Of a DNA stretch of 64,000 nucleotides, positions 1 through 49,916 are shown in pieces (the stretch's first letter is position 1; every line of letters starts with the position of its first letter). Both the position numbers and the translations under genes were made by a program. Where the stretch lies: NCBI RefSeq assembly GCF_003790525.1, contig NZ_CP033635.1; one strand, written 5' to 3'. This DNA is from Escherichia coli. GTDB lineage: Bacteria; Pseudomonadota; Gammaproteobacteria; Enterobacterales; Enterobacteriaceae. The notes beneath the pieces were generated by a model. It made no database searches and had not been told where the DNA came from. It saw nothing but the letters and a program-made list of their open reading frames with translations.

Positions 1-2309
<2,309 letters not shown>

Positions 2310-2401
2310 ACAACGCCGAAGATGTTTTGGCGGAAGAGAGAAGATTTTCAGCCTGATACAGATTAAATCAGAACGCAGAAGCGGTCTGATGAAACAGAAT
2401 T

Positions 2402-2521
2402 TGCCTGGCGGCCGTAGCGCGGTGGTCCCACCTGACCCCATGCCGAACTCAGAAGTGAAACGCCGTAGCGCCGATGGTAGTGTGGGGTCTCCCCATGCGA
2501 GAGTAGGGAACTGCCAGGCAT
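2402..2521 (+). rRNA. rrfG: 5S ribosomal RNA
   Basis: 120-nt sequence TGCCTGGCGGCCGTAGCGCGGTGGTCCCACCTGACCCCATGCCGAACTCAGAAGTGAAACGCCGTAGCGCCGATGGTAGTGTGGGGTCTCCCCATGCGAGAGTAGGGAACTGCCAGGCAT matches E. coli 5S rRNA; follows the 23S 3' end after a ~92-nt spacer. Confidence 0.97.
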
Positions 2522-2533
2522 CAAATTAAGCAG

Positions 2534-2561
2534 AAGGCCATCCGTCAGGATGGCCTTTTTG
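2534..2561 (+). terminator. rrn operon rho-independent terminator
   Basis: AGGCCATCC-GTCA-GGATGGCCT hairpin followed by TTTTTG, immediately after the 5S rRNA. Confidence 0.85.
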
Positions 2562-2580
2562 CATTGGTGCAGAAAAAAAT

Positions 2581-2612
2581 GCCTGATGCGATGCTGCGCG
2601 TCTTATACTCCC
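2581..2612. repeat. degenerate REP-like sequence
   Basis: GCCTGATGCGATGCTGCGCGTCTTATAC resembles the 5' two-thirds of the REP consensus (GCCTGATGCGACGCT...CGCGTCTTATCAGGCC) but lacks the 3' arm. Confidence 0.3.
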
Positions 2613-2843
2613 ACATATGCCAGATTCAGCAACGGATACGGTTTCCCCAACTTGCCTACTTCCATACGTGTCCTCCTTACCAGAAATTTATCCTTAAGCT
2701 CCTCAATAACCATTTTCCTGCTAACTAAATTCATGGTTAAGGTTGCATAATGATACGCAACAAATGTATAACATTTTTTTACCAAAAAAAATAAACAACA
2801 GCGACTGACAAAAGCATCGGATTACGGCAGGAGACATAATGGC

Positions 2844-4142
2844 ATGGCTGAAAGTACTGTAACGGCAGACAGCAAACTGACAAGTAGTGATACTCGTCGC
2901 CGCATTTGGGCGATTGTGGGGGCCTCTTCAGGTAATCTGGTCGAGTGGTTCGATTTCTATGTCTACTCGTTCTGTTCACTCTACTTTGCCCACATCTTCT
3001 TCCCTTCCGGGAACACGACGACTCAACTACTACAAACAGCAGGTGTTTTTGCTGCGGGATTTCTGATGCGCCCAATAGGCGGTTGGCTATTTGGCCGCAT
3101 AGCCGATAAACATGGTCGCAAAAAATCGATGCTATTATCGGTGTGTATGATGTGTTTCGGCTCACTGGTTATCGCCTGTTTGCCAGGCTACGAAACAATC
3201 GGTACCTGGGCTCCGGCATTATTGCTTCTTGCTCGTTTATTCCAGGGATTATCCGTTGGCGGAGAATATGGCACCAGCGCCACCTATATGAGTGAAGTTG
3301 CCGTTGAAGGGCGCAAAGGTTTTTACGCATCATTTCAGTATGTGACGTTGATCGGCGGGCAACTGCTAGCTCTACTGGTTGTCGTGGTTTTACAACACAC
3401 CATGGAAGACGCTGCACTCAGAGAGTGGGGATGGCGTATTCCTTTCGCGTTAGGAGCTGTGTTAGCTGTTGTGGCGTTGTGGTTACGTCGTCAGTTAGAT
3501 GAAACTTCACAACAAGAAACGCGCGCTTTAAAAGAAGCTGGATCTCTGAAAGGATTATGGCGCAATCGCCGTGCATTCATCATGGTTCTCGGTTTTACCG
3601 CTGCGGGCTCCCTTTGTTTCTATACCTTCACCACTTATATGCAGAAGTATCTGGTAAATACTGCGGGAATGCATGCCAACGTGGCGAGTGGCATTATGAC
3701 TGCCGCATTGTTTGTATTCATGCTTATTCAACCACTCATTGGCGCGCTGTCGGATAAGATTGGTCGCCGTACCTCAATGTTATGTTTCGGTTCGCTGGCA
3801 GCCATTTTTACCGTTCCTATTCTCTCAGCATTGCAGAACGTTTCCTCGCCTTATGCCGCTTTTGGTCTGGTGATGTGCGCCCTGCTGATAGTGAGTTTTT
3901 ATACTTCAATCAGTGGAATACTGAAGGCTGAGATGTTCCCGGCACAGGTTCGCGCATTAGGCGTTGGTCTGTCATATGCGGTCGCCAATGCTATATTTGG
4001 TGGGTCGGCGGAGTACGTAGCGTTGTCGCTGAAATCAATAGGAATGGAAACAGCCTTCTTCTGGTATGTGACCTTGATGGCCGTGGTGGCGTTTCTGGTT
4101 TCACTAACATTGCACCGTAAAGGAAAAGGGATGCGGCTTTAG
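2844..4142 (+). CDS. kgtP: alpha-ketoglutarate:H+ symporter (MFS)
   Basis: 432-aa [46 protein letters not shown]...; multi-pass membrane protein of the sugar-transporter MFS type; length and N-terminus match KgtP. Confidence 0.95.
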
Positions 4143-4462
4143 TGACGAGTCAGTTGCCAGACGGTATAGCCGGTGCTTGCACCGGCGATATCCCAGGCAA
4201 AATCCTTCCAGCTCCAGCCGCTCCCCTCAGGGCGGCTATCCCAAAGCTCTTTTGACGCCCCCAGACTGACAGAGAACATCAATCCAAACATGGCACTGCG
4301 ATCCCGGCTCATCCCCTGATGCTGTGCATATTCATTTCCGGCGGCGGAAAGCATCGCCGAGGCGATAAAGTGTTGAGCTTTATCCTGCCCGCTCCAGCTA
4401 TCGTTAGCCATATGGCTGCATCCAGAAAGTAACAATAGCGAGCAGACAAAAAGAATACGCAA
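4139..4462 (-). CDS. yfiM: small lipoprotein of unknown function
   Basis: ORF-track ORF is 114 aa (4139-4483). I favour the in-frame TTG 7 codons in (107 aa), because the pssA terminator hairpin at 4472-4503 overlaps the longer start. Signal peptide with lipobox LLSGC. Convergent with kgtP, overlapping its 3' end by 4 bp. Confidence 0.8.
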
Positions 4463-4471
4463 AACGTGGCC

Positions 4472-4503
4472 TCCAAAAAACAAACCCCGTACAGGACGGG
4501 GTT
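4472..4503 (-). terminator. rho-independent terminator downstream of pssA
   Basis: On the minus strand AACCCCGTcctgtACGGGGTT hairpin followed by TGTTTTTTGG; lies 5 nt after the pssA stop. Confidence 0.7.
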
Positions 4504-4507
4504 GTGA

Positions 4508-5863
4508 TTACAGGATGCGGCTAATTAATCGGTCGATGCGGATACGGCGCAAACGACGGATGAGTTTACGAACCTTCACCGGATAATCGGCAATACTTTG
4601 CAGATCGCGATAGTGCTTAACGATGGTGGTATGCTCGCGGATCAGCTCCAGTTCTTTCTCTCGCTGTGGCGCAAGCTCCAGTTGCGGATCGTGGATCAAA
4701 ATGGCGTTTTCCAGATCCAGACGCCAGGCGCGCGGGTTCAGGTTATTACCGGTGATCAACATCCACTTATCATCAACCCACATCCCTTTCAGGTGATAGG
4801 TGTTGTCGTCATCTTTCCATAACCGAACCACTAATTGGTCAGTATTGACGTAATACTGCAAACGGCTCAGGAAACGACGCAGATTGATCTCATAGAGATA
4901 AGGCAATGCGCCAATTATCTTGAAAGGTTCATCTTCCGGAATGTAGAAGTCATTCGCGGTTTTATCACCAACAATAATTTCGACCTTTTTCCCTTCGCGC
5001 AGCAACTGGATAATATTGCGCACAAGGATTGCTGGCAGGTTGAAGTAAGGTGTGCAGATGGTTAGTTTCTGCTCGGCACAAGGCATAAGATGGAAAATAG
5101 TCTTGTTCAACAGACTCGATTTCCCCAGCCCCACTAGCGGCGTTACGGAAAGCTGATCGTTGTCGGCATCGCCCTGGAAATGATAAGCGGCATCACGCAG
5201 CTCCTGGCGGAACAGGCGAATGTCGTTCTTGATTTCCGGGCTTTTTGGCCGATTAACATCATCCAGACGATTAACGCCGCGGCCATTCATAATATTCTGT
5301 GTAACCCATTCAAACATAATGTCTGACATCTTACGGTTACGGATCAGATGATAACGGTCGTAGCGATATTTATCGTGCTGATGCAGGTAAACATCGTTCA
5401 GGCTGGCACCGCTATAAAGTACGCTATCGTCGATGATAAAGCCTTTAAAGTGCAGAACACCAAGGGCTTCACGGGTATTGATTGGAACGCCATAAACCGG
5501 AACATCTACGCCCGGATTTTCCTGCGCCATGCGGCAGTACCAGTCAGCGTTAGTGTTAGATGCCGCAGCGCCAATGCGTCCACGTTGTGCACGATGCCAG
5601 TCGACCAGCACCCGCACATCCAGTTCCGGACGCTGCCTTTTAGCCTCATACAACGCGTTCAGAATGCCTTTGCCACCGTCATCCTGTTCGAGATACAGGG
5701 CGACAATGCAAATGCGCTGCTTCGCGCTGGCTATTTTTTCCAGCAGCGTCTCCCGGAAGTCGGCGGGAGCGTAAAAGAAATCGACATCATCAACTGATTG
5801 AGAAATCTTGGGTAGTTGGGCAAGGTGTTGTTGATGTTTATTACGCTTAAATTTTGACAACAT
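4508..5863 (-). CDS. pssA: CDP-diacylglycerol-serine O-phosphatidyltransferase (phosphatidylserine synthase)
   Basis: 451 aa from the second Met of the 452-aa ORF (MLSKFKRNKHQQHLAQLPKISQ...); two HxK-type phospholipase-D-like segments (LHFKGFIID..., HLKGMWVDD...). Confidence 0.95.
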   Translation of the reverse strand: MLSKFKRNKHQQHLAQLPKISQSVDDVDFFYAPADFRETLLEKIASAKQRICIVALYLEQDDGGKGILNALYEAKRQRPELDVRVLVDWHRAQRGRIGAAASNTNADWYCRMAQENPGVDVPVYGVPINTREALGVLHFKGFIIDDSVLYSGASLNDVYLHQHDKYRYDRYHLIRNRKMSDIMFEWVTQNIMNGRGVNRLDDVNRPKSPEIKNDIRLFRQELRDAAYHFQGDADNDQLSVTPLVGLGKSSLLNKTIFHLMPCAEQKLTICTPYFNLPAILVRNIIQLLREGKKVEIIVGDKTANDFYIPEDEPFKIIGALPYLYEINLRRFLSRLQYYVNTDQLVVRLWKDDDNTYHLKGMWVDDKWMLITGNNLNPRAWRLDLENAILIHDPQLELAPQREKELELIREHTTIVKHYRDLQSIADYPVKVRKLIRRLRRIRIDRLISRIL

Positions 5864-5976
5864 CACAGTGCATTTCTTCTCTGTTCATTGAAGGGTCCTC
5901 TGTGCAATGCAGACGACATAAGCGGGCAATAATAACACCAGTCCCGATTAAGTGGTCAACATTTCCAGTACCTTAC

Positions 5977-15648: not shown

Positions 15649-18002
<2,354 letters not shown>

Positions 18003-18248
18003 TTAATTTACTAAACATGGTTTGGTCAGCATAGCATCATGTTGTGCGAATAAACACCTGCTATTTTAATATTTGTTACAGTTGCTAAACACGCTGACGC
18101 AGGGCGGCGAGAAAAAGAGAAGTTACTGGCTGGTGGAGGATTAGGTGGTGAAATAAAAAGGCCGTTGGGTTACTCTTCAGGCAGTTAAATGGGCATTTCT
18201 ACACAGATAATGCGATGTTCAGATTCTGTAGACTTATAATGATAGATA

Positions 18249-44243: not shown

Positions 44244-45437
44244 TCAAATCTGCCGTAACTGCGCCTCAACATACAAATAGCCAATTCCCAGCACCTGCTG
44301 TGCGCGGCTTAATTGCCCAAAGCCAATTTGCGTCGCTTTCACGCTCGGTCCTTCGTCGCGGTCGAACGGGTTAAATCCCGTCTGGCGAATAATGGTATTA
44401 AGCCAGTTCTCACCAAAGGCACAACTGCGACCGTACAACCAAATCTGATTAATATTGAGGATGTTGAGGAAGTTATACAGACTCAAACCAATGGCGTTGG
44501 CAGAGCGATCAACCCAACTGGTGATCCACGGTTCTCCACTCTGCCAGGCAGCGATTAACTGCGCGGTAGTCAGTTTTTCAGGATCAAGCTGAGTATTAAC
44601 CGGTTGTGATTTTAGCCATACCCGCGCCTGTTTTTTTAATGCGCTTAACGAGGCGACGGTTTCCAGGCAGCCGTAACGCCCGCAGTCGCAGACGACGCCA
44701 TCCGGATTAACGATGGTGTGACCAATTTGCCCGCTACCATACAAACTGCCGCGATAAATTTGCTCGTTAATCACGAACGACGAGCCAATGCCGTAATCAA
44801 CGTTGATCACGCAGAAATCCCGTTCCTGCGAATTATTTTGCCATTTCTCCGCCAGCGCCAGCATCACGCAGTCATTATCGACCATCACCCGAATGCCGAG
44901 CTTCTCTTCCAGCAGATACTTTACCTCAACCGGCGTTGTCCACGGCGCTTGCGGCATGGTTTGCGACACGCCAGTCACCGGATCAACCTGACCGTGGATT
45001 GCCAGCGCCAGGTTGATGGTACGGTCCGGCCACAATTTACGGTGGCGATGCCAGCATTTTTCGATTTCGGACAGCAGCGCCTGCGGCGTCGGTGCATCAA
45101 TCTGTAAATACTCAAATTCACCTTTCGGACTTAAACAGGCGTTAGCGACCTGACACTCAATACTGGTGGGCGTCACGTTCAGGCACAGCGTCCAGTCACC
45201 TTCCGGCGCAATCAGCCATGTACCGCTACTATGCCCGCGCGTCTGGCTTTCATCGTCGATATTTACCACCCGTTTTTCGCTTTCCAGTTCCTGCAAAATA
45301 TTACTGACTGCCGGAATCGAAATTTGCGCCAGCCGGGCCAGCGTTGATTTATTGGCGCGCTTTTGCCGGTACAGCAGTTCCAGAATCACGCATTTGTTAT
45401 GGTGGCGAATCTGTTGATTATTAATGCAGGCTCTCAT
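44244..45437 (-). CDS. yphH: ROK/NagC-family transcriptional regulator (uncharacterised)
   Basis: 397 aa from the ATG at 45437 (the ORF track uses a GTG two codons upstream); N-terminal HTH (KSTLARLAQISIPAVSNILQELE) plus ROK sugar-kinase-like domain with CxCGxxGC zinc motif (CDCGRYGCLE). Confidence 0.85.
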   Translation of the reverse strand: MRACINNQQIRHHNKCVILELLYRQKRANKSTLARLAQISIPAVSNILQELESEKRVVNIDDESQTRGHSSGTWLIAPEGDWTLCLNVTPTSIECQVANACLSPKGEFEYLQIDAPTPQALLSEIEKCWHRHRKLWPDRTINLALAIHGQVDPVTGVSQTMPQAPWTTPVEVKYLLEEKLGIRVMVDNDCVMLALAEKWQNNSQERDFCVINVDYGIGSSFVINEQIYRGSLYGSGQIGHTIVNPDGVVCDCGRYGCLETVASLSALKKQARVWLKSQPVNTQLDPEKLTTAQLIAAWQSGEPWITSWVDRSANAIGLSLYNFLNILNINQIWLYGRSCAFGENWLNTIIRQTGFNPFDRDEGPSVKATQIGFGQLSRAQQVLGIGYLYVEAQLRQI

Positions 45438-45554
45438 CTTCACTAAACCTTGTTTAGTTAATTGCGTGATTATTCCGCGAAAACATTGCCAGATTGTTCA
45501 ATACACTGCCACAAATCTTTTAATTCAGTATGTCTTGTTAATATTGAGGGCACC

Positions 45555-48500
45555 ATGACTCCAGTAAAAGTGTGGCAAGAGCGCGTTGAGATCCCGACCT
45601 ATGAAACCGGGCCGCAGGATATACATCCCATGTTCCTGGAAAATCGCGTTTATCAGGGATCGTCCGGCGCGGTTTATCCCTACGGCGTGACCGATACGCT
45701 GAGCGAGCAGAAAACCCTGAAATCCTGGCAGGCGGTGTGGCTGGAAAATGACTACATCAAAGTGATGATCCTGCCGGAACTGGGCGGTCGGGTGCATCGC
45801 GCATGGGATAAAGTGAAACAGCGCGATTTTGTCTATCACAATGAAGTCATTAAACCTGCGCTGGTGGGGCTGCTGGGACCGTGGATCTCCGGCGGGATTG
45901 AGTTTAACTGGCCGCAACACCATCGCCCGACCACCTTTATGCCCGTTGATTTCACCCTCGAAGCCCATGACGACGGCGCACAGACGGTGTGGGTCGGCGA
46001 AACGGAGCCGATGCACGGTTTACAGGTGATGACAGGTTTCACCCTGCGTCCTGACCGGGCGGCGCTGGAAATCGCCAGTCGCGTCTATAACGGCAACGCC
46101 ACGCCGCGTCATTTCTTGTGGTGGGCCAACCCGGCAGTGAAAGGGGGTGAAGGGCATCAGAGCGTCTTCCCGCCGGATGTAACGGCGGTGTTTGATCACG
46201 GCAAACGGGCCGTCTCCGCTTTCCCCATCGCCACCGGCACTTACTACAAAGTGGACTACTCCGCCGGAGTGGACATTTCTCGCTATAAAAATGTGCCCGT
46301 TCCAACCTCATATATGGCTGAAAAATCACAGTACGATTTTGTTGGCGCGTGGTGTCACGATGAAGATGGTGGTTTGCTACACGTTGCCAACCACCATATT
46401 GCGCCAGGTAAAAAACAGTGGAGCTGGGGACACAGTGAATTTGGCCAGGCGTGGGATAAGAGCCTGACTGACAATAACGGCCCGTATATCGAACTGATGA
46501 CCGGTATTTTTGCCGATAACCAGCCTGATTTTACCTGGCTTGATGCTTACGAGGAGAAGCGTTTCGAGCAGTATTTCCTGCCTTATCATTCTCTGGGCAT
46601 GGTGCAAAATGCCTCCCGCGATGCGGTGATAAAACTCCAGCGTAGTGAGCGGGGGATTGAGTGGGGGCTGTATGCCATCTCTCCGTTGAACGGATACCGC
46701 CTGGCGATCCGCGAAATCGGCAAATGCAACGCGTTGCTCGATGATGCCGTGGCCCTGACACCAGCGACCGCCATCCAGGGCGTGTTGCACGGTATCAATC
46801 CTGACAGACTGACCATTGAGCTCTCCGATGCCGACGGCAATATTGTACTGAGTTATCATGAACATCAGCCGCAAGCGTTGCCGTTGCCGGACGTCGCCAA
46901 AGCGCCACTGTCAGCACAAGACATTACCAGTACAGATGAAGCCTGGTTTATCGGTCAGCATCTGGAGCAATATCATCACGCCAGCCGTTCACCGTTCGAT
47001 TACTACCTGCGCGGCGTGGCGCTGGATCCGCTGGATTATCGCTGTAACCTGGCGCTGGCGATGCTGGAATATAACCGCGCCGATTTCCCGCAAGCGGTGG
47101 CGTATGCCACTCAGGCGCTGAAACGCGCACATGCGCTGAACAAAAATCCGCAGTGCGGACAGGCCAGTTTGATTCGCGCCAGTGCTTACGAACGTCAGGG
47201 ACAATATCAACAAGCCGAAGAGGATTTCTGGCGGGCGGTCTGGAGCGGCAATAGTAAAGCAGGTGGCTATTATGGTCTGGCACGACTGGCGGCGCGTAAT
47301 GGTCACTTCGATGCTGGTCTGGATTTTTGCCAACAAAGTCTTCGCGCCTGCCCAACCAATCAGGAAGTGCTTTGCCTGCATAATCTGCTGCTGGTGTTAA
47401 GTGGTCGTCAGGACAACGCGCGTTTGCAGCGCGAGAAACTGCTGCGCGATTATCCGCTGAACGCCACTCTGTGGTGGCTGAACTGGTTCGATGGTCGTAG
47501 CGAATCAGCCCTCGCGCAGTGGCGCGGTCTGTGTCAGGGACGCGACGTTAACGCCCTGATGACCGCCGGGCAACTGATTAACTGGGGAATGCCTACCCTG
47601 GCGGCAGAGATGCTGAACGCACTGGACTGCCAGCGCACGCTGCCGCTTTATCTGCAGGCGAGTTTATTGCCGAAAGCCGAACGCGGCGAACTGGTCGCAA
47701 AAGCCATTGATGTCTTCCCGCAGTTTGTCCGTTTCCCGAATACGCTGGAAGAAGTGGCGGCGCTGGAGAGTATTGAAGAGTGCTGGTTTGCCCGTCATTT
47801 ATTGGCCTGCTTCTACTACAACAAGCGTAGCTACGGCAAAGCCATTGCCTTATGGCAACGTTGCGTAGAGATGTCGCCGGAGTTTGCCGACGGCTGGCGC
47901 GGGTTAGCGATCCATGCGTGGAATAAGCAACACGATTATGAGCTGGCCGCGCGTTATCTTGATAATGCTTATCAGCTTGCGCCGCAGGATGCACGTCTGC
48001 TTTTCGAACGGGATTTGCTGGATAAGTTAAGTGGAGCCACACCGGAGAAACGACTGGCGCGTCTGGAAAATAATCTGGAAATTGCGCTGAAACGCGACGA
48101 CATGACCGCAGAACTGCTCAATTTGTGGCATCTCACGGGTCAGGCAGACAAAGCGGCGGACATTCTCGCCACGCGCAAATTCCACCCGTGGGAAGGCGGG
48201 GAAGGGAAGATCACCAGTCAGTTTATCCTCAACCAGTTATTACGCGCCTGGCAGCATCTTGATGCCAGAGAGCCGCAGCAGGCCAGCGAACTGCTTCATG
48301 CCGCGCTGCATTATCCGGAGAATTTAAGCGAAGGCCGTTTACCGGGGCAAACTGATAACGACATCTGGTTCTGGCAGGCGATATGCGCCAACGCGCAGGG
48401 AGATGAAACTGAAGCGATGCGTTGTTTACGTCTGGCGGCGACTGGCGATCGCACCATTAACATTCACAGTTATTACAACGATCAGCCGGTTGATTATCTC

Positions 48501-48836
48501 TTCTGGCAAGGAATGGCGCTGCGACTGCTGGGCGAACAACAAATCGCACAGCAACTGTTTAGTGAAATGAAACAGTGGGCGCAAGAGATGGCGAAAACCA
48601 GTATTGAGGCGGATTTCTTTGCTGTTTCACAACCTGACCTGTTGTCGCTGTATGGCGATTTACAACAGCAGCATAAAGAAAAATGCCTGATGGTGGCGAT
48701 GCTGGCGTCCGCGGGACTCGGGGAGGTTGCGCACTATGAATCTGCTCGCGCTGAATTGACGGCGATTAATCCGGCCTGGCCGAAAGCGGCATTATTCACC
48801 ACTGTGATGCCTTTTATTTTTAACTACGTTCACTAA
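45555..48836 (+). CDS. yphG: large uncharacterised protein, N-terminal DUF5107-type domain plus C-terminal TPR-like repeats
   Basis: 1093 aa from MTPVKVWQERVEIPTYETGPQD... (ATG at 45555 preceded by GAGGG); C-terminal half shows repeated helical TPR-like motifs; no signal peptide. ORF-track ORF extends 31 codons further upstream. Confidence 0.85.
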   Translation: MTPVKVWQERVEIPTYETGPQDIHPMFLENRVYQGSSGAVYPYGVTDTLSEQKTLKSWQAVWLENDYIKVMILPELGGRVHRAWDKVKQRDFVYHNEVIKPALVGLLGPWISGGIEFNWPQHHRPTTFMPVDFTLEAHDDGAQTVWVGETEPMHGLQVMTGFTLRPDRAALEIASRVYNGNATPRHFLWWANPAVKGGEGHQSVFPPDVTAVFDHGKRAVSAFPIATGTYYKVDYSAGVDISRYKNVPVPTSYMAEKSQYDFVGAWCHDEDGGLLHVANHHIAPGKKQWSWGHSEFGQAWDKSLTDNNGPYIELMTGIFADNQPDFTWLDAYEEKRFEQYFLPYHSLGMVQNASRDAVIKLQRSERGIEWGLYAISPLNGYRLAIREIGKCNALLDDAVALTPATAIQGVLHGINPDRLTIELSDADGNIVLSYHEHQPQALPLPDVAKAPLSAQDITSTDEAWFIGQHLEQYHHASRSPFDYYLRGVALDPLDYRCNLALAMLEYNRADFPQAVAYATQALKRAHALNKNPQCGQASLIRASAYERQGQYQQAEEDFWRAVWSGNSKAGGYYGLARLAARNGHFDAGLDFCQQSLRACPTNQEVLCLHNLLLVLSGRQDNARLQREKLLRDYPLNATLWWLNWFDGRSESALAQWRGLCQGRDVNALMTAGQLINWGMPTLAAEMLNALDCQRTLPLYLQASLLPKAERGELVAKAIDVFPQFVRFPNTLEEVAALESIEECWFARHLLACFYYNKRSYGKAIALWQRCVEMSPEFADGWRGLAIHAWNKQHDYELAARYLDNAYQLAPQDARLLFERDLLDKLSGATPEKRLARLENNLEIALKRDDMTAELLNLWHLTGQADKAADILATRKFHPWEGGEGKITSQFILNQLLRAWQHLDAREPQQASELLHAALHYPENLSEGRLPGQTDNDIWFWQAICANAQGDETEAMRCLRLAATGDRTINIHSYYNDQPVDYLFWQGMALRLLGEQQIAQQLFSEMKQWAQEMAKTSIEADFFAVSQPDLLSLYGDLQQQHKEKCLMVAMLASAGLGEVAHYESARAELTAINPAWPKAALFTTVMPFIFNYVH

Positions 48837-48932
48837 ACCCTATTAACTGTAATATTTGAGCGGCACGCGCTGCCGCTCACGCTCAAATAATTAAAATAAG
48901 CCGTTGTAAATAAAAACCCTACAGGAGGCACT

Positions 48933-49916
48933 ATGCCTAAAAAAATGAGAACAACCCGTAATCTATTATTAATGGCTACGCTATTAGGTAGCGCACTATT
49001 TGCCAGGGCTGCGGATAAAGAAATGACCATTGGCGCAATATACCTTGATACCCAGGGATATTACGCTGGCGTGCGTCAGGGTGTTCAGGATGCGGCAAAA
49101 GATTCTTCAGTACAGGTACAGTTAATTGAAACTAACGCCCAGGGTGATATTTCGAAAGAAAGTACCTTTGTTGATACCCTCGTGGCGCGTAATGTCGATG
49201 CCATTATTTTATCGGCAGTGTCTGAAAATGGCAGTAGCCGTACCGTTCGTCGCGCCAGTGAAGCGGGTATTCCGGTGATTTGCTACAACACCTGTATTAA
49301 TCAAAAAGGCGTCGATAAATATGTCTCGGCGTATCTGGTCGGCGATCCGCTGGAATTTGGTAAAAAACTGGGTAATGCTGCCGCCGATTATTTTATTGCC
49401 AACAAAATTGACCAGCCGAAAATTGCCGTCATCAATTGCGAAGCCTTTGAAGTTTGTGTGCAGCGACGTAAAGGGTTTGAAGAAGTATTAAAAGCCCGCG
49501 TTCCCGGCGCGCAAATTGTCGCTAATCAGGAAGGGACTGTTTTAGATAAAGCGATTTCCGTTGGTGAAAAACTAATTATCTCCAGGCCGGATCTCAACGC
49601 CATTATGGGTGAATCGGGCGGAGCGACACTCGGCGCGGTAAAAGCGGTACGTAATCAAAATCAGGCCGGAAAAATTGCTGTTTTCGGTTCGGATATGACC
49701 ACTGAAATTGCTCAGGAGCTGGAAAACAATCAGGTGCTGAAAGCGGTAGTGGATATTTCCGGCAAGAAAATGGGCAATGCTGTTTTCGCGCAAACATTGA
49801 AGGTTATCAATAAACAAGCCGACGGTGAAAAAGTGATTCAGGTGCCTATCGATCTCTATACCAAAACGGAAGACGGTAAACAGTGGCTGGCAACGCACGT
49901 TGATGGTCTGCCCTAA
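48933..49916 (+). CDS. yphF: ABC transporter periplasmic sugar-binding protein (uncharacterised)
   Basis: 327-aa ORF with signal peptide (MPKKMRTTRNLLLMATLLGSALFARA); periplasmic-binding-protein type I fold typical of monosaccharide ABC systems. Confidence 0.88.
   Translation: MPKKMRTTRNLLLMATLLGSALFARAADKEMTIGAIYLDTQGYYAGVRQGVQDAAKDSSVQVQLIETNAQGDISKESTFVDTLVARNVDAIILSAVSENGSSRTVRRASEAGIPVICYNTCINQKGVDKYVSAYLVGDPLEFGKKLGNAAADYFIANKIDQPKIAVINCEAFEVCVQRRKGFEEVLKARVPGAQIVANQEGTVLDKAISVGEKLIISRPDLNAIMGESGGATLGAVKAVRNQNQAGKIAVFGSDMTTEIAQELENNQVLKAVVDISGKKMGNAVFAQTLKVINKQADGEKVIQVPIDLYTKTEDGKQWLATHVDGLP

What the first reader, a model, noticed from the sequence alone, without database searches (positions are those of the whole stretch)
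45442..45458. Inverted repeat ACTAAAC-N3-GTTTAGT at the yphH start / yphH-yphG divergent control region
A 7-bp inverted repeat with a 3-bp spacer lies immediately 5' of the yphH initiation codon, covering its ribosome-binding region, in the short divergent spacer shared with yphG. It could be a YphH (ROK repressor) operator for autoregulation, or an mRNA hairpin occluding the yphH ribosome-binding site.
Basis: inference. Interest (0 to 1): 0.25.

Follow-up and report, generated by a model that had tools for sequence, protein, structure and literature searches.

The report
Probable YphH repressor operator at yphH
The small inverted repeat in front of the E. coli yphH gene is the core of a DNA motif kept across about 80 enterobacterial species and repeated inside the neighbouring sugar operon. 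It is most likely the still-undescribed binding site through which the uncharacterised ROK repressor YphH controls itself and that operon.

Summary
The repeat ACTAAAC-CTT-GTTTAGT is exactly at 45442-45458, 4 nt upstream of the yphH ATG (45437, minus strand), in the 117-bp yphH/yphG divergent spacer. Within the window alone it is not beyond chance: there are 7 such repeats in 64 kb.

Comparative evidence changes that. All 80 orthologous loci fetched carry AGTWAAS-N3-GTTWAGT upstream of yphH, preceded by an invariant TCAC, while most of the rest of the spacer diverges.

In Pantoea-type loci, which lack yphG, the box stays with yphH. There it lies 24-74 nt from the start codon and its spacer is not Shine-Dalgarno-like.

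A second copy (48832-48848, 20.5 of 24.9 bits) overlaps the yphG stop codon, upstream of yphF.

The geometry is a 23-bp quasi-palindrome with T at -6 and A at +6, like NagC/Mlc operators. YphH aligns with Mlc, including its DNA-binding domain.

The RNA hairpin is weak (-4.8 kcal/mol) and absent in most species.

Verdict: a probable YphH operator that gives autoregulation and operon control. It is a new member of a known kind. Binding, promoter positions and the effector are all inferred, not shown.

The parts
45442..45458 (.). Box 1 core: perfect inverted repeat ACTAAAC-CTT-GTTTAGT (yphH-sense strand: ACTAAAC-AAG-GTTTAGT)
   Evidence: It scores 22.3 of 24.9 bits against the cross-species matrix. 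The 33 nt centred on it (45434-45466) are present once in 5422 of 5426 complete E. coli genomes.
45439..45461 (.). 23-bp quasi-palindrome around box 1 (positions -11 to +11), the size and odd-centred geometry of ROK operators
   Evidence: 9 of 10 arms. T-6, A-4, T+3, T+4, A+6 and T+8 are invariant; A-8, A-3, G+2 and G+7 are at least 90% conserved; T at -11 and A at +11 are mostly kept. NagC/Mlc rule from PMC4288165; 23-bp palindromes for ROK regulators from PMC3553997.
45459..45469 (-). Conserved flank on the yphG side of the box (yphH-sense TCACGCAATTA), with invariant TCAC (+ strand GTGA, 45466-45469) 7 nt from the box
   Evidence: TCAC is present in 78 of 78 distinct sequences and A-13/A-12 are strongly conserved. 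The same spacing occurs at the second box in L068 and L081 (TCAC) and in E. coli (TCAA). Its role is unexplained.
45448..45451 (-). Probable yphH Shine-Dalgarno sequence AAGG, inside the spacer and inner edge of box 1
   Evidence: Read from the sequence. In yphG-linked loci the spacer is purine-rich (GGA, GGG, AAG), while in Pantoea-type loci, where the box is far from the ATG, it is ACT, CTC or AGT.
44244..45437 (-). yphH coding sequence (397 aa), a ROK-family protein with an N-terminal Mlc-like DNA-binding domain; the presumed binder of the boxes
   Evidence: Pfam ROK match, E = 1.3e-32. Aligns to Mlc structures 1Z6R and 3BP8 from residue 9. The recognition-helix segment SIPAVSNIL is conserved across all locus types.
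45555..48836 (+). yphG (DUF5107 plus TPR repeats), first gene of the divergent yphGFEDCB cluster
48832..48848 (-). Box 2: AGTTAATAGGGTTTAGT on the minus strand. It overlaps the last 5 nt of yphG (including the TAA stop, 48834-48836) and lies 84 nt upstream of the yphF ATG (48933)
   Evidence: 20.5 bits. A hit of at least 20 bits occurs in 0.7% of 300 dinucleotide shuffles of the window. A box of at least 16 bits is at the same position in 14 of the 20 other loci that have yphF after yphG; it is weaker or lost in the other six, including three with a short yphG-yphF gap. The 33 nt centred on it (48824-48856) are present in 5414 of 5426 E. coli genomes.
45527..45543 (.). Tentative box 1': position equivalent to a weak third box 84-85 bp from box 1 and about 20 nt upstream of the yphG ATG. 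In E. coli only the half-site TATTAAC (minus strand) remains
   Evidence: the best residual matrix hit falls 84-85 bp from box 1 in 39 of 72 loci, reaching about 9-13 bits in many of the loci where yphG is followed by an MFS transporter. In E. coli the score is -1.6 bits, although the block CAGTATGTCTTGTTAA is nearly invariant in E. coli-type loci.
45469..45474 (-). Candidate yphH -10 hexamer AATAAT (inference only); it would put the transcription start near 45462-45463 and box 1 at about +5 to +21
   Evidence: Conservation pattern AAT-r-m-T at positions -24 to -19. No consensus promoter was found by the scan and no start-site data could be obtained.
45502..45507 (+). Candidate yphG -10 hexamer TACACT (TAnACT conserved across locus types; inference only)
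   Evidence: Alignments. There is no matching -35 and no hit in the promoter scan.

Best explanation
The inverted repeat is the core of a conserved DNA operator, called here the YphH box. On the yphH-sense strand its consensus is TCAC-N7-AGTWAAS-N3-GTTWAGT. The most likely binder is the N-terminal winged-helix domain of the ROK-family repressor YphH acting as a dimer or higher oligomer.

Box 1 lies between the presumed yphH promoter and the start codon, and the Shine-Dalgarno sequence sits in its uncontacted 3-bp spacer. Bound YphH would therefore hinder RNA polymerase at or just after initiation and give negative autoregulation.

A second box lies at the yphG/yphF junction. A weak third box may lie next to the yphG ribosome-binding site, 84-85 bp from box 1. 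These would extend the same control to the divergent yphGFEDCB sugar-uptake and catabolism cluster. An unidentified sugar or sugar derivative binding the ROK domain would release the repressor.

Shown here:
- the repeat exists at the stated coordinates;
- it is deeply conserved at the sequence level and partly dyad-symmetric;
- it follows yphH rather than yphG or the ribosome-binding site;
- a second copy exists in the operon;
- it is not a conserved RNA stem.

Inferred, not shown:
- that YphH is the binder;
- that the effect is repression;
- the promoter positions;
- looping between boxes;
- the effector.
For: 1. All 80 orthologous loci have the motif (at least 15 of 17 positions) upstream of yphH. 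Using the E. coli palindrome itself as the probe, 60 of 76 non-Escherichia loci have at most 3 mismatches within 120 nt upstream of yphH, against 0.0026 expected per locus.
2. Conservation is confined to positions -19 to +11 around the dyad, and the spacer varies.
3. In 8 Pantoea/Erwinia-type loci yphH faces a different operon (MBL-fold hydrolase, MFS transporter, GMC oxidoreductase). The box is kept there, 24-74 nt from the start codon, with a non-Shine-Dalgarno spacer.
4. A distant YphG homologue is paired with a ROK protein only 28% identical to YphH. That locus lacks the box and instead has its own 13-nt repeat near both gene starts.
5. Box 2 at 48832-48848 scores 20.5 bits, and a hit of at least 20 bits occurs in 0.7% of shuffles. 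In the loci that keep box 2 the last yphG codon varies (CAC, AAC, TAC) while the box bases AC-TAA stay fixed.
6. The geometry matches ROK operators. NagC/Mlc sites are quasi-palindromes reaching position 11 on either side of a central base (23 bp), with TT/AA at positions 5 and 6 either side of the centre. Thermotoga ROK regulators have 23-bp palindromes and are autoregulated.
7. YphH is a ROK protein that aligns with Mlc through the DNA-binding domain. Its recognition-helix segment is conserved although the N-terminal 120 residues are only about 45% identical between locus types.
Against: - There are no binding, expression or ChIP data for YphH in the searchable literature.
- No transcription start is known, and no sigma-70 consensus promoter was detected. 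The position of the box relative to the promoters is therefore inferred.
- The dyad is imperfect in a conserved way: G at both -7 and +7 in 46 of 51 distinct sequences.
- The invariant TCAC flank is not explained by a simple dimer palindrome.
- Box 1 is centred 105 bp from the yphG ATG, so control of yphG from it alone is unclear. The candidate third box does not score in E. coli (-1.6 bits).
- The loci are phylogenetically related, so counts of loci overstate the number of independent observations.
- Pfam does not itself call a helix-turn-helix domain in E. coli YphH.
Confidence: 0.7

Rival explanations
1. The repeat acts in the yphH mRNA. A 7-bp stem with a 3-nt loop would fold around the ribosome-binding region and lower translation initiation.
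For: In E. coli the isolated 25-nt segment folds into this hairpin at -4.8 kcal/mol (z = -3.4; 2 of 200 shuffles fold as well). It lies 4 nt from the ATG. Escherichia and Phytobacter carry a C at -7 that makes the stem perfect.
Against: In 51- and 81-nt contexts the fold is no better than shuffles (z = -0.08 and -0.41), and the 81-nt minimum-energy structure does not contain the hairpin. Across 51 distinct orthologous sequences the median minimum free energy is -1.1 kcal/mol; only 8 reach -3 or lower and 20 are unfolded. Pair 5-19 is broken in 46 of 51, pair 7-17 in 20 of 51 and pair 10-14 in 15 of 51. The motif is conserved where it is 24-74 nt from the start codon. It also recurs at the yphG/yphF junction, where the yphG-yphF transcript would carry its reverse complement, 84 nt from the nearest start codon. 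There is no Rfam match. The Shine-Dalgarno bases are mostly in the loop.
Confidence: 0.07
2. The box is a real protein-binding site, but for a regulator other than YphH, for example a global or neighbouring transcription factor.
For: No experiment links YphH to the site. The conserved flank (TCAC, and the direct repeat ATTGCG-N5-ATTCCG at 45461-45478) suggests additional or different contacts. The GTGA core resembles half of a CRP site.
Against: The box co-occurs with yphH in 80 of 80 loci, including loci with a different divergent operon. It is absent where a YphG homologue is paired with a distant ROK protein. The other half of a would-be CRP site is not present in any locus type (read). The only other similar sequence in the window (18010) belongs to a palindrome of different arrangement upstream of nadB. 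The geometry fits ROK operators.
Confidence: 0.12
3. No regulator is involved. The block is conserved because it carries basic expression signals of yphH (-10 region, transcription start, Shine-Dalgarno sequence, spacing to the ATG), and the dyad symmetry is incidental.
For: In 72 loci the box ends 2-5 nt from the start codon and its spacer is Shine-Dalgarno-like. TAnAGT at positions -11 to -6 and AATrmT at -24 to -19 resemble -10 hexamers.
Against: Arm positions are invariant while the Shine-Dalgarno-like spacer varies. In the Pantoea-type loci the box is separated from the Shine-Dalgarno sequence and ATG, yet its arms are kept. A high-scoring second copy sits at the yphG/yphF junction, where there is no yphH start. 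Basic signals are rarely kept this exactly across genera whose remaining spacer is unalignable.
Confidence: 0.08

Closest known systems
NagC and Mlc operators of E. coli (ROK-family repressors)
   Same: The regulator is a paralogous ROK protein with an N-terminal winged helix-turn-helix domain; YphH aligns with Mlc residues 12-339. The site is an odd-centred quasi-palindrome of about 23 bp with a T at -6 and an A at +6. In many species it has TT at -6/-5 and AA at +5/+6, which are the only fully conserved positions of NagC/Mlc sites. It lies in the control region of sugar transport and catabolism genes and of the regulator's own gene. Having more than one box per locus recalls the two NagC operators that form a loop at nagE-nagB (my own knowledge, not tested here).
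   Different: The arm sequence (AGTWAAS / GTTWAGT) is not the NagC/Mlc logo. Position 5 on either side of the centre is A or T rather than fixed. There is a conserved G at both -7 and +7 and an invariant TCAC 7 bp outside one arm. The YphH linker carries RG rather than the GR motif that reads the operator flanks in NagC/Mlc. Binding and looping are untested.
ROK regulators of Thermotogae predicted by comparative genomics (Kazanov et al., PMC3553997)
   Same: The inference is of the same kind. A 23-bp palindromic motif is found upstream of sugar-utilisation operons next to the regulator gene, the regulators are autoregulated, and the effectors are sugars.
   Different: The lineage and the motif sequence differ. 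Several of the Thermotoga regulators were validated experimentally in that study, whereas YphH has no experimental validation.
Operators overlapping the start of the regulated transcript (lac O1-type steric repression)
   Same: If the candidate -10 (45469-45474) is right, box 1 would span about +5 to +21, a classic repressor position.
   Different: The promoter is not mapped. Here the operator also encloses the Shine-Dalgarno sequence in its spacer.

Membership tests
ROK-family (NagC/Mlc-type) operator | The cognate regulator is a ROK protein with an N-terminal winged helix-turn-helix DNA-binding domain | tested here: met
   Pfam ROK match, E = 1.3e-32. Alignment to Mlc 1Z6R/3BP8 from residue 9, covering the helix-turn-helix. 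The literature lists YphH as the third, uncharacterised ROK repressor of E. coli.
ROK-family (NagC/Mlc-type) operator | Quasi-palindrome of about 23 bp with a central base pair | tested here: met
   7+3+7 core extending to 9 of 10 arms. Symmetric conserved positions at 2, 3, 4, 6, 8 and 11 on either side of the centre in 78 distinct sequences.
ROK-family (NagC/Mlc-type) operator | TT at -6/-5 and AA at +5/+6 | tested here: inconclusive
   T-6 and A+6 are invariant. Position -5 is T in 55 and A in 22 of 78 sequences; position +5 is T in 45 and A in 32. E. coli itself has TA...TA.
ROK-family (NagC/Mlc-type) operator | Located in the control region of the regulator's own gene and/or adjacent sugar-utilisation genes | tested here: met
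   Box 1 is upstream of yphH in 80 of 80 loci. Box 2 is upstream of the ABC-transporter genes yphFED. A weak box lies upstream of an MFS sugar-transporter gene in Pantoea-type loci.
ROK-family (NagC/Mlc-type) operator | Specific binding by the regulator, relieved by a sugar effector | not testable with these tools
   This needs EMSA, footprinting or ChIP. No such data are in the searchable literature.
Ribosome-binding-site-sequestering mRNA hairpin | A stem stable beyond background that covers the Shine-Dalgarno sequence or start codon | tested here: not met
   -4.8 kcal/mol; z = -0.08 and -0.41 in 51- and 81-nt contexts; the Shine-Dalgarno bases lie mostly in the loop.
Ribosome-binding-site-sequestering mRNA hairpin | Base pairing conserved, or maintained by compensatory change, in orthologues | tested here: not met
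   77% of cells are paired against 75.5% in shuffles. One pair is broken in 46 of 51 sequences. 20 of 51 sequences do not fold.
Known RNA families (Rfam) | Match to a curated covariance model | tested here: not met
   No match with E up to 1 in 45200-49100.

The most novel reading that the evidence does not exclude
The element is not a plain dimer palindrome but a composite, asymmetric operator of about 31 bp with three related half-sites: TCAC-NN-AA, then AGTWAAC 9 bp later, then an inverted GTTWAGT. An alternative reading is a second dyad, TCAC-N8-GTTAAC-N8-GTGA. Either way it would be read by a YphH oligomer in a mode different from NagC/Mlc. It would work together with boxes 85 bp and 3.4 kb away by looping. 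Its spacer encodes the Shine-Dalgarno sequence, so in Escherichia, where a G-to-C change at -7 perfects the dyad, the same 17 bases would also dampen translation as an mRNA hairpin.
Probability: 0.15. Interest if true: 0.55.

Novelty: new member of a known kind. Interest (0 to 1): 0.4.

Why it matters
YphH is the only one of the three ROK repressors of E. coli K-12 with no known target, operator or effector, and the yphGFEDCB cluster has no known substrate.

A precise, conserved operator prediction makes the YphH regulon directly testable. It comprises two boxes in E. coli, with a weight matrix derived from 80 species. EMSA, ChIP-exo, box mutations and effector screening by release from the box all become possible.

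The prediction also offers a third operator specificity with which to study how ROK linkers and helices read DNA. The general finding, a sugar repressor with a palindromic operator at its own divergent promoter, is what a specialist would expect.

Tried and rejected
- **Chance.** The repeat alone is compatible with chance, but cross-species conservation excludes this.
- **Second match at 18010 (ACTAAACATGGTTTGGT, 1 mismatch).** It is part of TGTTTA-N6-TAAACA at 18000-17, 7 nt upstream of the nadB start. That is the arrangement I know as the NadR box, and it is unrelated to the yph boxes.
- **Promoter and terminator scans.** These gave no sigma-70 consensus hit around either box.
- **Reading the flank by eye as a CRP, IHF or sigma-54 site.** In each case only half of the site, or the site in only one locus type, fits, so all were rejected.
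- **Published transcription start sites.** One paper is not held and another has no supplementary text held.
- **Literature on yphH and yphB-G.** Nothing on operators or function was found.
- **Rfam.** No match.
- **Upstream extension of the yphH reading frame through the box.** Rejected because the distance from box to ATG varies by 2-5 nt between species, so the frame is not kept, and because the orthologues align from M1.
- **Third box near the yphG start.** It is positionally conserved in other genera but scores -1.6 bits in E. coli. It is kept only as tentative.
- **YphG homologues without yphH.** Two of the three distant contigs were too short to be informative.

Full report
**Observation.** The window is E. 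coli K-12-like DNA. The segment 45300-45700 is 100% identical to K-12 derivatives and is present in 5425 of 5426 complete E. coli genomes. RefSeq annotation of the identical region gives yphH (ROK family protein) on the minus strand at 44244-45437. It is followed in the opposite direction by yphG (45555-48836), yphF, yphE, yphD, yphC and yphB.

The repeat ACTAAAC-CTT-GTTTAGT is exactly at 45442-45458 and extends to 9 of 10 positions per arm over 45439-45461. On the yphH-sense strand the sequence reads ...ATCACGCAATTA ACTAAAC AAG GTTTAGT GAAG ATG. The repeat therefore ends 4 nt before the start codon, and AAGG in its centre is the likely Shine-Dalgarno sequence.

By itself the repeat is unremarkable. 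There are 7 perfect 7+7 repeats with a 3-nt spacer in the window and 85 with spacers of 0-10. One turns up in 1% (spacer 3) or 7.8% (any spacer 0-10) of shuffles of the 117-bp spacer.

**Conservation.** I aligned YphH orthologues and used the alignment to fetch 80 loci from one genome per species. They span Escherichia, Citrobacter, Klebsiella, Raoultella, Enterobacter, Buttiauxella, Cedecea, Hafnia, Serratia, Budvicia, Ewingella, Pantoea, Erwinia and others.

All 80 carry AGTWAAS-N3-GTTWAGT (at least 15 of 17 positions) upstream of yphH. A position table from 78 distinct sequences shows conservation confined to -19 to +11 around the dyad centre:
- an invariant TCAC at -19 to -16, followed by GCAATA;
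- the two arms, with T-6, A-4, T+3, T+4, A+6 and T+8 invariant;
- a variable spacer;
- little conservation beyond +11.

As a test independent of that table, I used the E. coli palindrome itself as the probe. It is found with at most 3 mismatches within 120 nt upstream of yphH in 60 of 76 non-Escherichia loci, against 0.0026 expected per locus from the rest of the same loci. The other 16 carry AGTTAAGGGAGTTAAGT, which is 4 mismatches from the perfect palindrome. The perfect 7+7 dyad is a peculiarity of Escherichia and one other genome (Phytobacter). Most species have G at both -7 and +7.

**The box follows yphH, not yphG and not the ribosome-binding site.** Three locus types exist:
- **Type A** (E. 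coli-like): yphH divergent from yphG-yphFED (ABC transporter)-yphC-yphB.
- **Type B**: yphH divergent from yphG, an MFS sugar transporter and an aldose epimerase.
- **Type C** (Pantoea, Erwinia, Izhakiella, Biostraticola): yphH divergent from an unrelated operon (MBL-fold hydrolase, MFS transporter, GMC oxidoreductase), with no yphG.

In types A and B the box ends 2-5 nt from the start codon and its spacer is Shine-Dalgarno-like (GGA, GGG, AAG). In the 8 type C loci the arms are intact, but the box is 24-74 nt from the start codon, its spacer is ACT, CTC, AGT or similar, and a separate Shine-Dalgarno sequence is present.

The converse case also holds. A distant YphG homologue (43% identical) is paired with a ROK protein only 28% identical to YphH. 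That locus has no YphH box. It carries instead its own perfect 13-nt repeat, ATAATTTCAAATT / AATTTGAAATTAT, one copy near each gene start.

**A second box in the window.** The matrix built from the box-1 sites gives only three loci of at least 12 bits in the 64-kb window: box 1 (22.3 bits), 18010 (16.3) and 48832-48848 (minus strand AGTTAATAGGGTTTAGT, 20.5 of a possible 24.9). A hit of at least 20 bits occurs in 0.7% of 300 dinucleotide-preserving shuffles of the window.

This second box overlaps the yphG stop codon and lies 84 nt upstream of the yphF ATG. A box of at least 16 bits is at the same place in E. albertii, Phytobacter, Raoultella, Citrobacter amalonaticus, Entomohabitans, Ewingella and others (14 of the 20 other loci that have yphF after yphG). 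It is degenerate in L006, L007 and L009, where the yphG-yphF gap is short, and weak or lost in L005, L008 and L011. It is absent in type B, where (in the locus read, L029) yphG overlaps the next gene.

In the loci that keep box 2, the last sense codon of yphG is CAC, AAC or TAC followed by TAA. The amino acid changes but the box bases AC-TAA do not, and type B YphG ends differently. This points to a constraint on the DNA rather than on the protein.

The flank with TCA(C) 7 nt from the box is also present at box 2. The 33-nt segments centred on the two boxes each occur once per genome in more than 5410 of 5426 E. coli genomes. The 18010 hit is part of a differently arranged palindrome in front of nadB.

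**A possible third box.** In the rest of the divergent spacer the best matrix hit falls 84-85 bp from box 1, about 20 nt upstream of the yphG ATG, in 39 of 72 loci. It reaches about 9-13 bits in many type B loci (the 99th percentile of background is 5.6 bits). In E. coli the equivalent sequence (45527-45543) scores -1.6 bits. It still lies in a block, CAGTATGTCTTGTTAA, that is nearly invariant in type A loci. I treat this box as tentative.

**DNA site or RNA structure.** The E. coli hairpin has -4.8 kcal/mol in isolation, but in 51- and 81-nt contexts the fold is no better than shuffles, and the hairpin is not formed in three other genera tested. Over 51 distinct orthologous 23-mers the median minimum free energy is -1.1 kcal/mol and 20 do not fold.

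Counted as a helix, 77% of cells pair against 75.5% in shuffles. Pair 5-19 is broken in 46 of 51 sequences, pair 7-17 in 20 and pair 10-14 in 15. Rfam has no match. Box 2 lies after the yphG stop, 84 nt from the nearest start codon. A conserved RNA stem is therefore not what is being maintained.

**Who binds.** YphH is a ROK protein that aligns with the Mlc structures from residue 9, across the DNA-binding domain, and has the CxCGxxGC zinc motif. Its N-terminal 120 residues drop to about 45% identity between locus types. The segment SIPAVSNIL, which aligns with the Mlc recognition helix, is nevertheless kept, in line with the nearly constant box.

NagC/Mlc sites are quasi-palindromes reaching position 11 on either side of the centre (23 bp), whose only invariant positions are TT at -6/-5 and AA at +5/+6. 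Thermotoga ROK regulators have 23-bp palindromes and are autoregulated. The YphH box has the same odd-centred geometry, invariant T-6 and A+6, and TT...AA in many species. The literature treats YphH as uncharacterised, and no operator is described.

**Mechanism proposed.** YphH bound at box 1 would block transcription of yphH. The candidate -10 at 45469-45474 would put the box at about +5 to +21, but no promoter is mapped. Through box 2, and perhaps the yphG-proximal box, YphH would also repress the divergent sugar cluster until an effector binds. Confidence is about 0.7. The rivals are another binding protein (0.12), plain expression signals (0.08) and an mRNA hairpin (0.07).

**Unexplained.**
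- The conserved G at both -7 and +7.
- The invariant TCAC flank and a possible alternative dyad centred 4.5 bp away from the box centre.
- The direct repeat ATTGCG-N5-ATTCCG.
- How yphG itself is controlled in E. coli.

Noticed in passing
window 18000-18017 (near-match to the finding at 18010-18026): A palindrome TGTTTA-ATTTAC-TAAACA lies 7 nt upstream of the start of a 540-aa minus-strand ORF (16371-17993; nadB by position, my assignment). This is the arrangement I know as the NadR operator. It explains the 1-mismatch hit to the yphH repeat and is unrelated to it.
   Followed up: partly
window 48857-48879: A GC-rich hairpin TGAGCGGCA-CGCGC-TGCCGCTCA lies 8 nt after box 2, between yphG and yphF. 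The stem GAGCGGC/GCCGCTC is kept in most E. coli-type loci while the loop varies. No T-run follows it on either strand, so it is not a canonical terminator.
   Followed up: partly
window 48788-48821: A terminator-like hairpin plus T-run (GGCATTATTCACCACTGTGATGCC TTTTATTTTT) lies inside the last codons of yphG, just before box 2. The T-run is not conserved in other genera.
   Followed up: partly
window 45461-45478: A direct repeat ATTGCG-N5-ATTCCG (ATTGCG-N5-ATTGCG in other genera, 11-bp period) lies next to box 1 and overlaps the invariant GTGA. It is conserved in both yphG-linked locus types. Its function is unknown.
   Followed up: partly
window 45502-45510 and 45526-45541: Two further conserved blocks lie in the yphH-yphG spacer. 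TAnACTGCC is a possible yphG -10. CAGTATGTCTTGTTAA lies just upstream of the yphG Shine-Dalgarno sequence and is nearly invariant in E. coli-type loci.
   Followed up: partly
L082 3312-3324 and 3421-3433: In a distant, AT-rich contig, a ROK gene (28% identical to YphH) is divergent from a YphG homologue (43% identical). The spacer has a perfect 13-nt inverted repeat, ATAATTTCAAATT / AATTTGAAATTAT, with one copy near each gene start. The two-box layout is the same but the box sequence differs.
   Followed up: partly
L060, L071-L074, L077-L079 (about 1800-5900): In Pantoea/Erwinia-type genomes the yphH orthologue and its box face an MBL-fold hydrolase, MFS transporter and GMC oxidoreductase operon instead of yphG. 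A weak box (13.1 bits) lies upstream of a downstream sugar-transporter gene in L072 and L073.
   Followed up: partly
window 44244-45437 (YphH) versus L020-L081: The N-terminal 120 residues of YphH (the DNA-binding domain) are only about 45% identical between locus types, although the whole protein is about 65% identical. The recognition-helix segment SIPAVSNIL stays nearly constant.
   Followed up: partly
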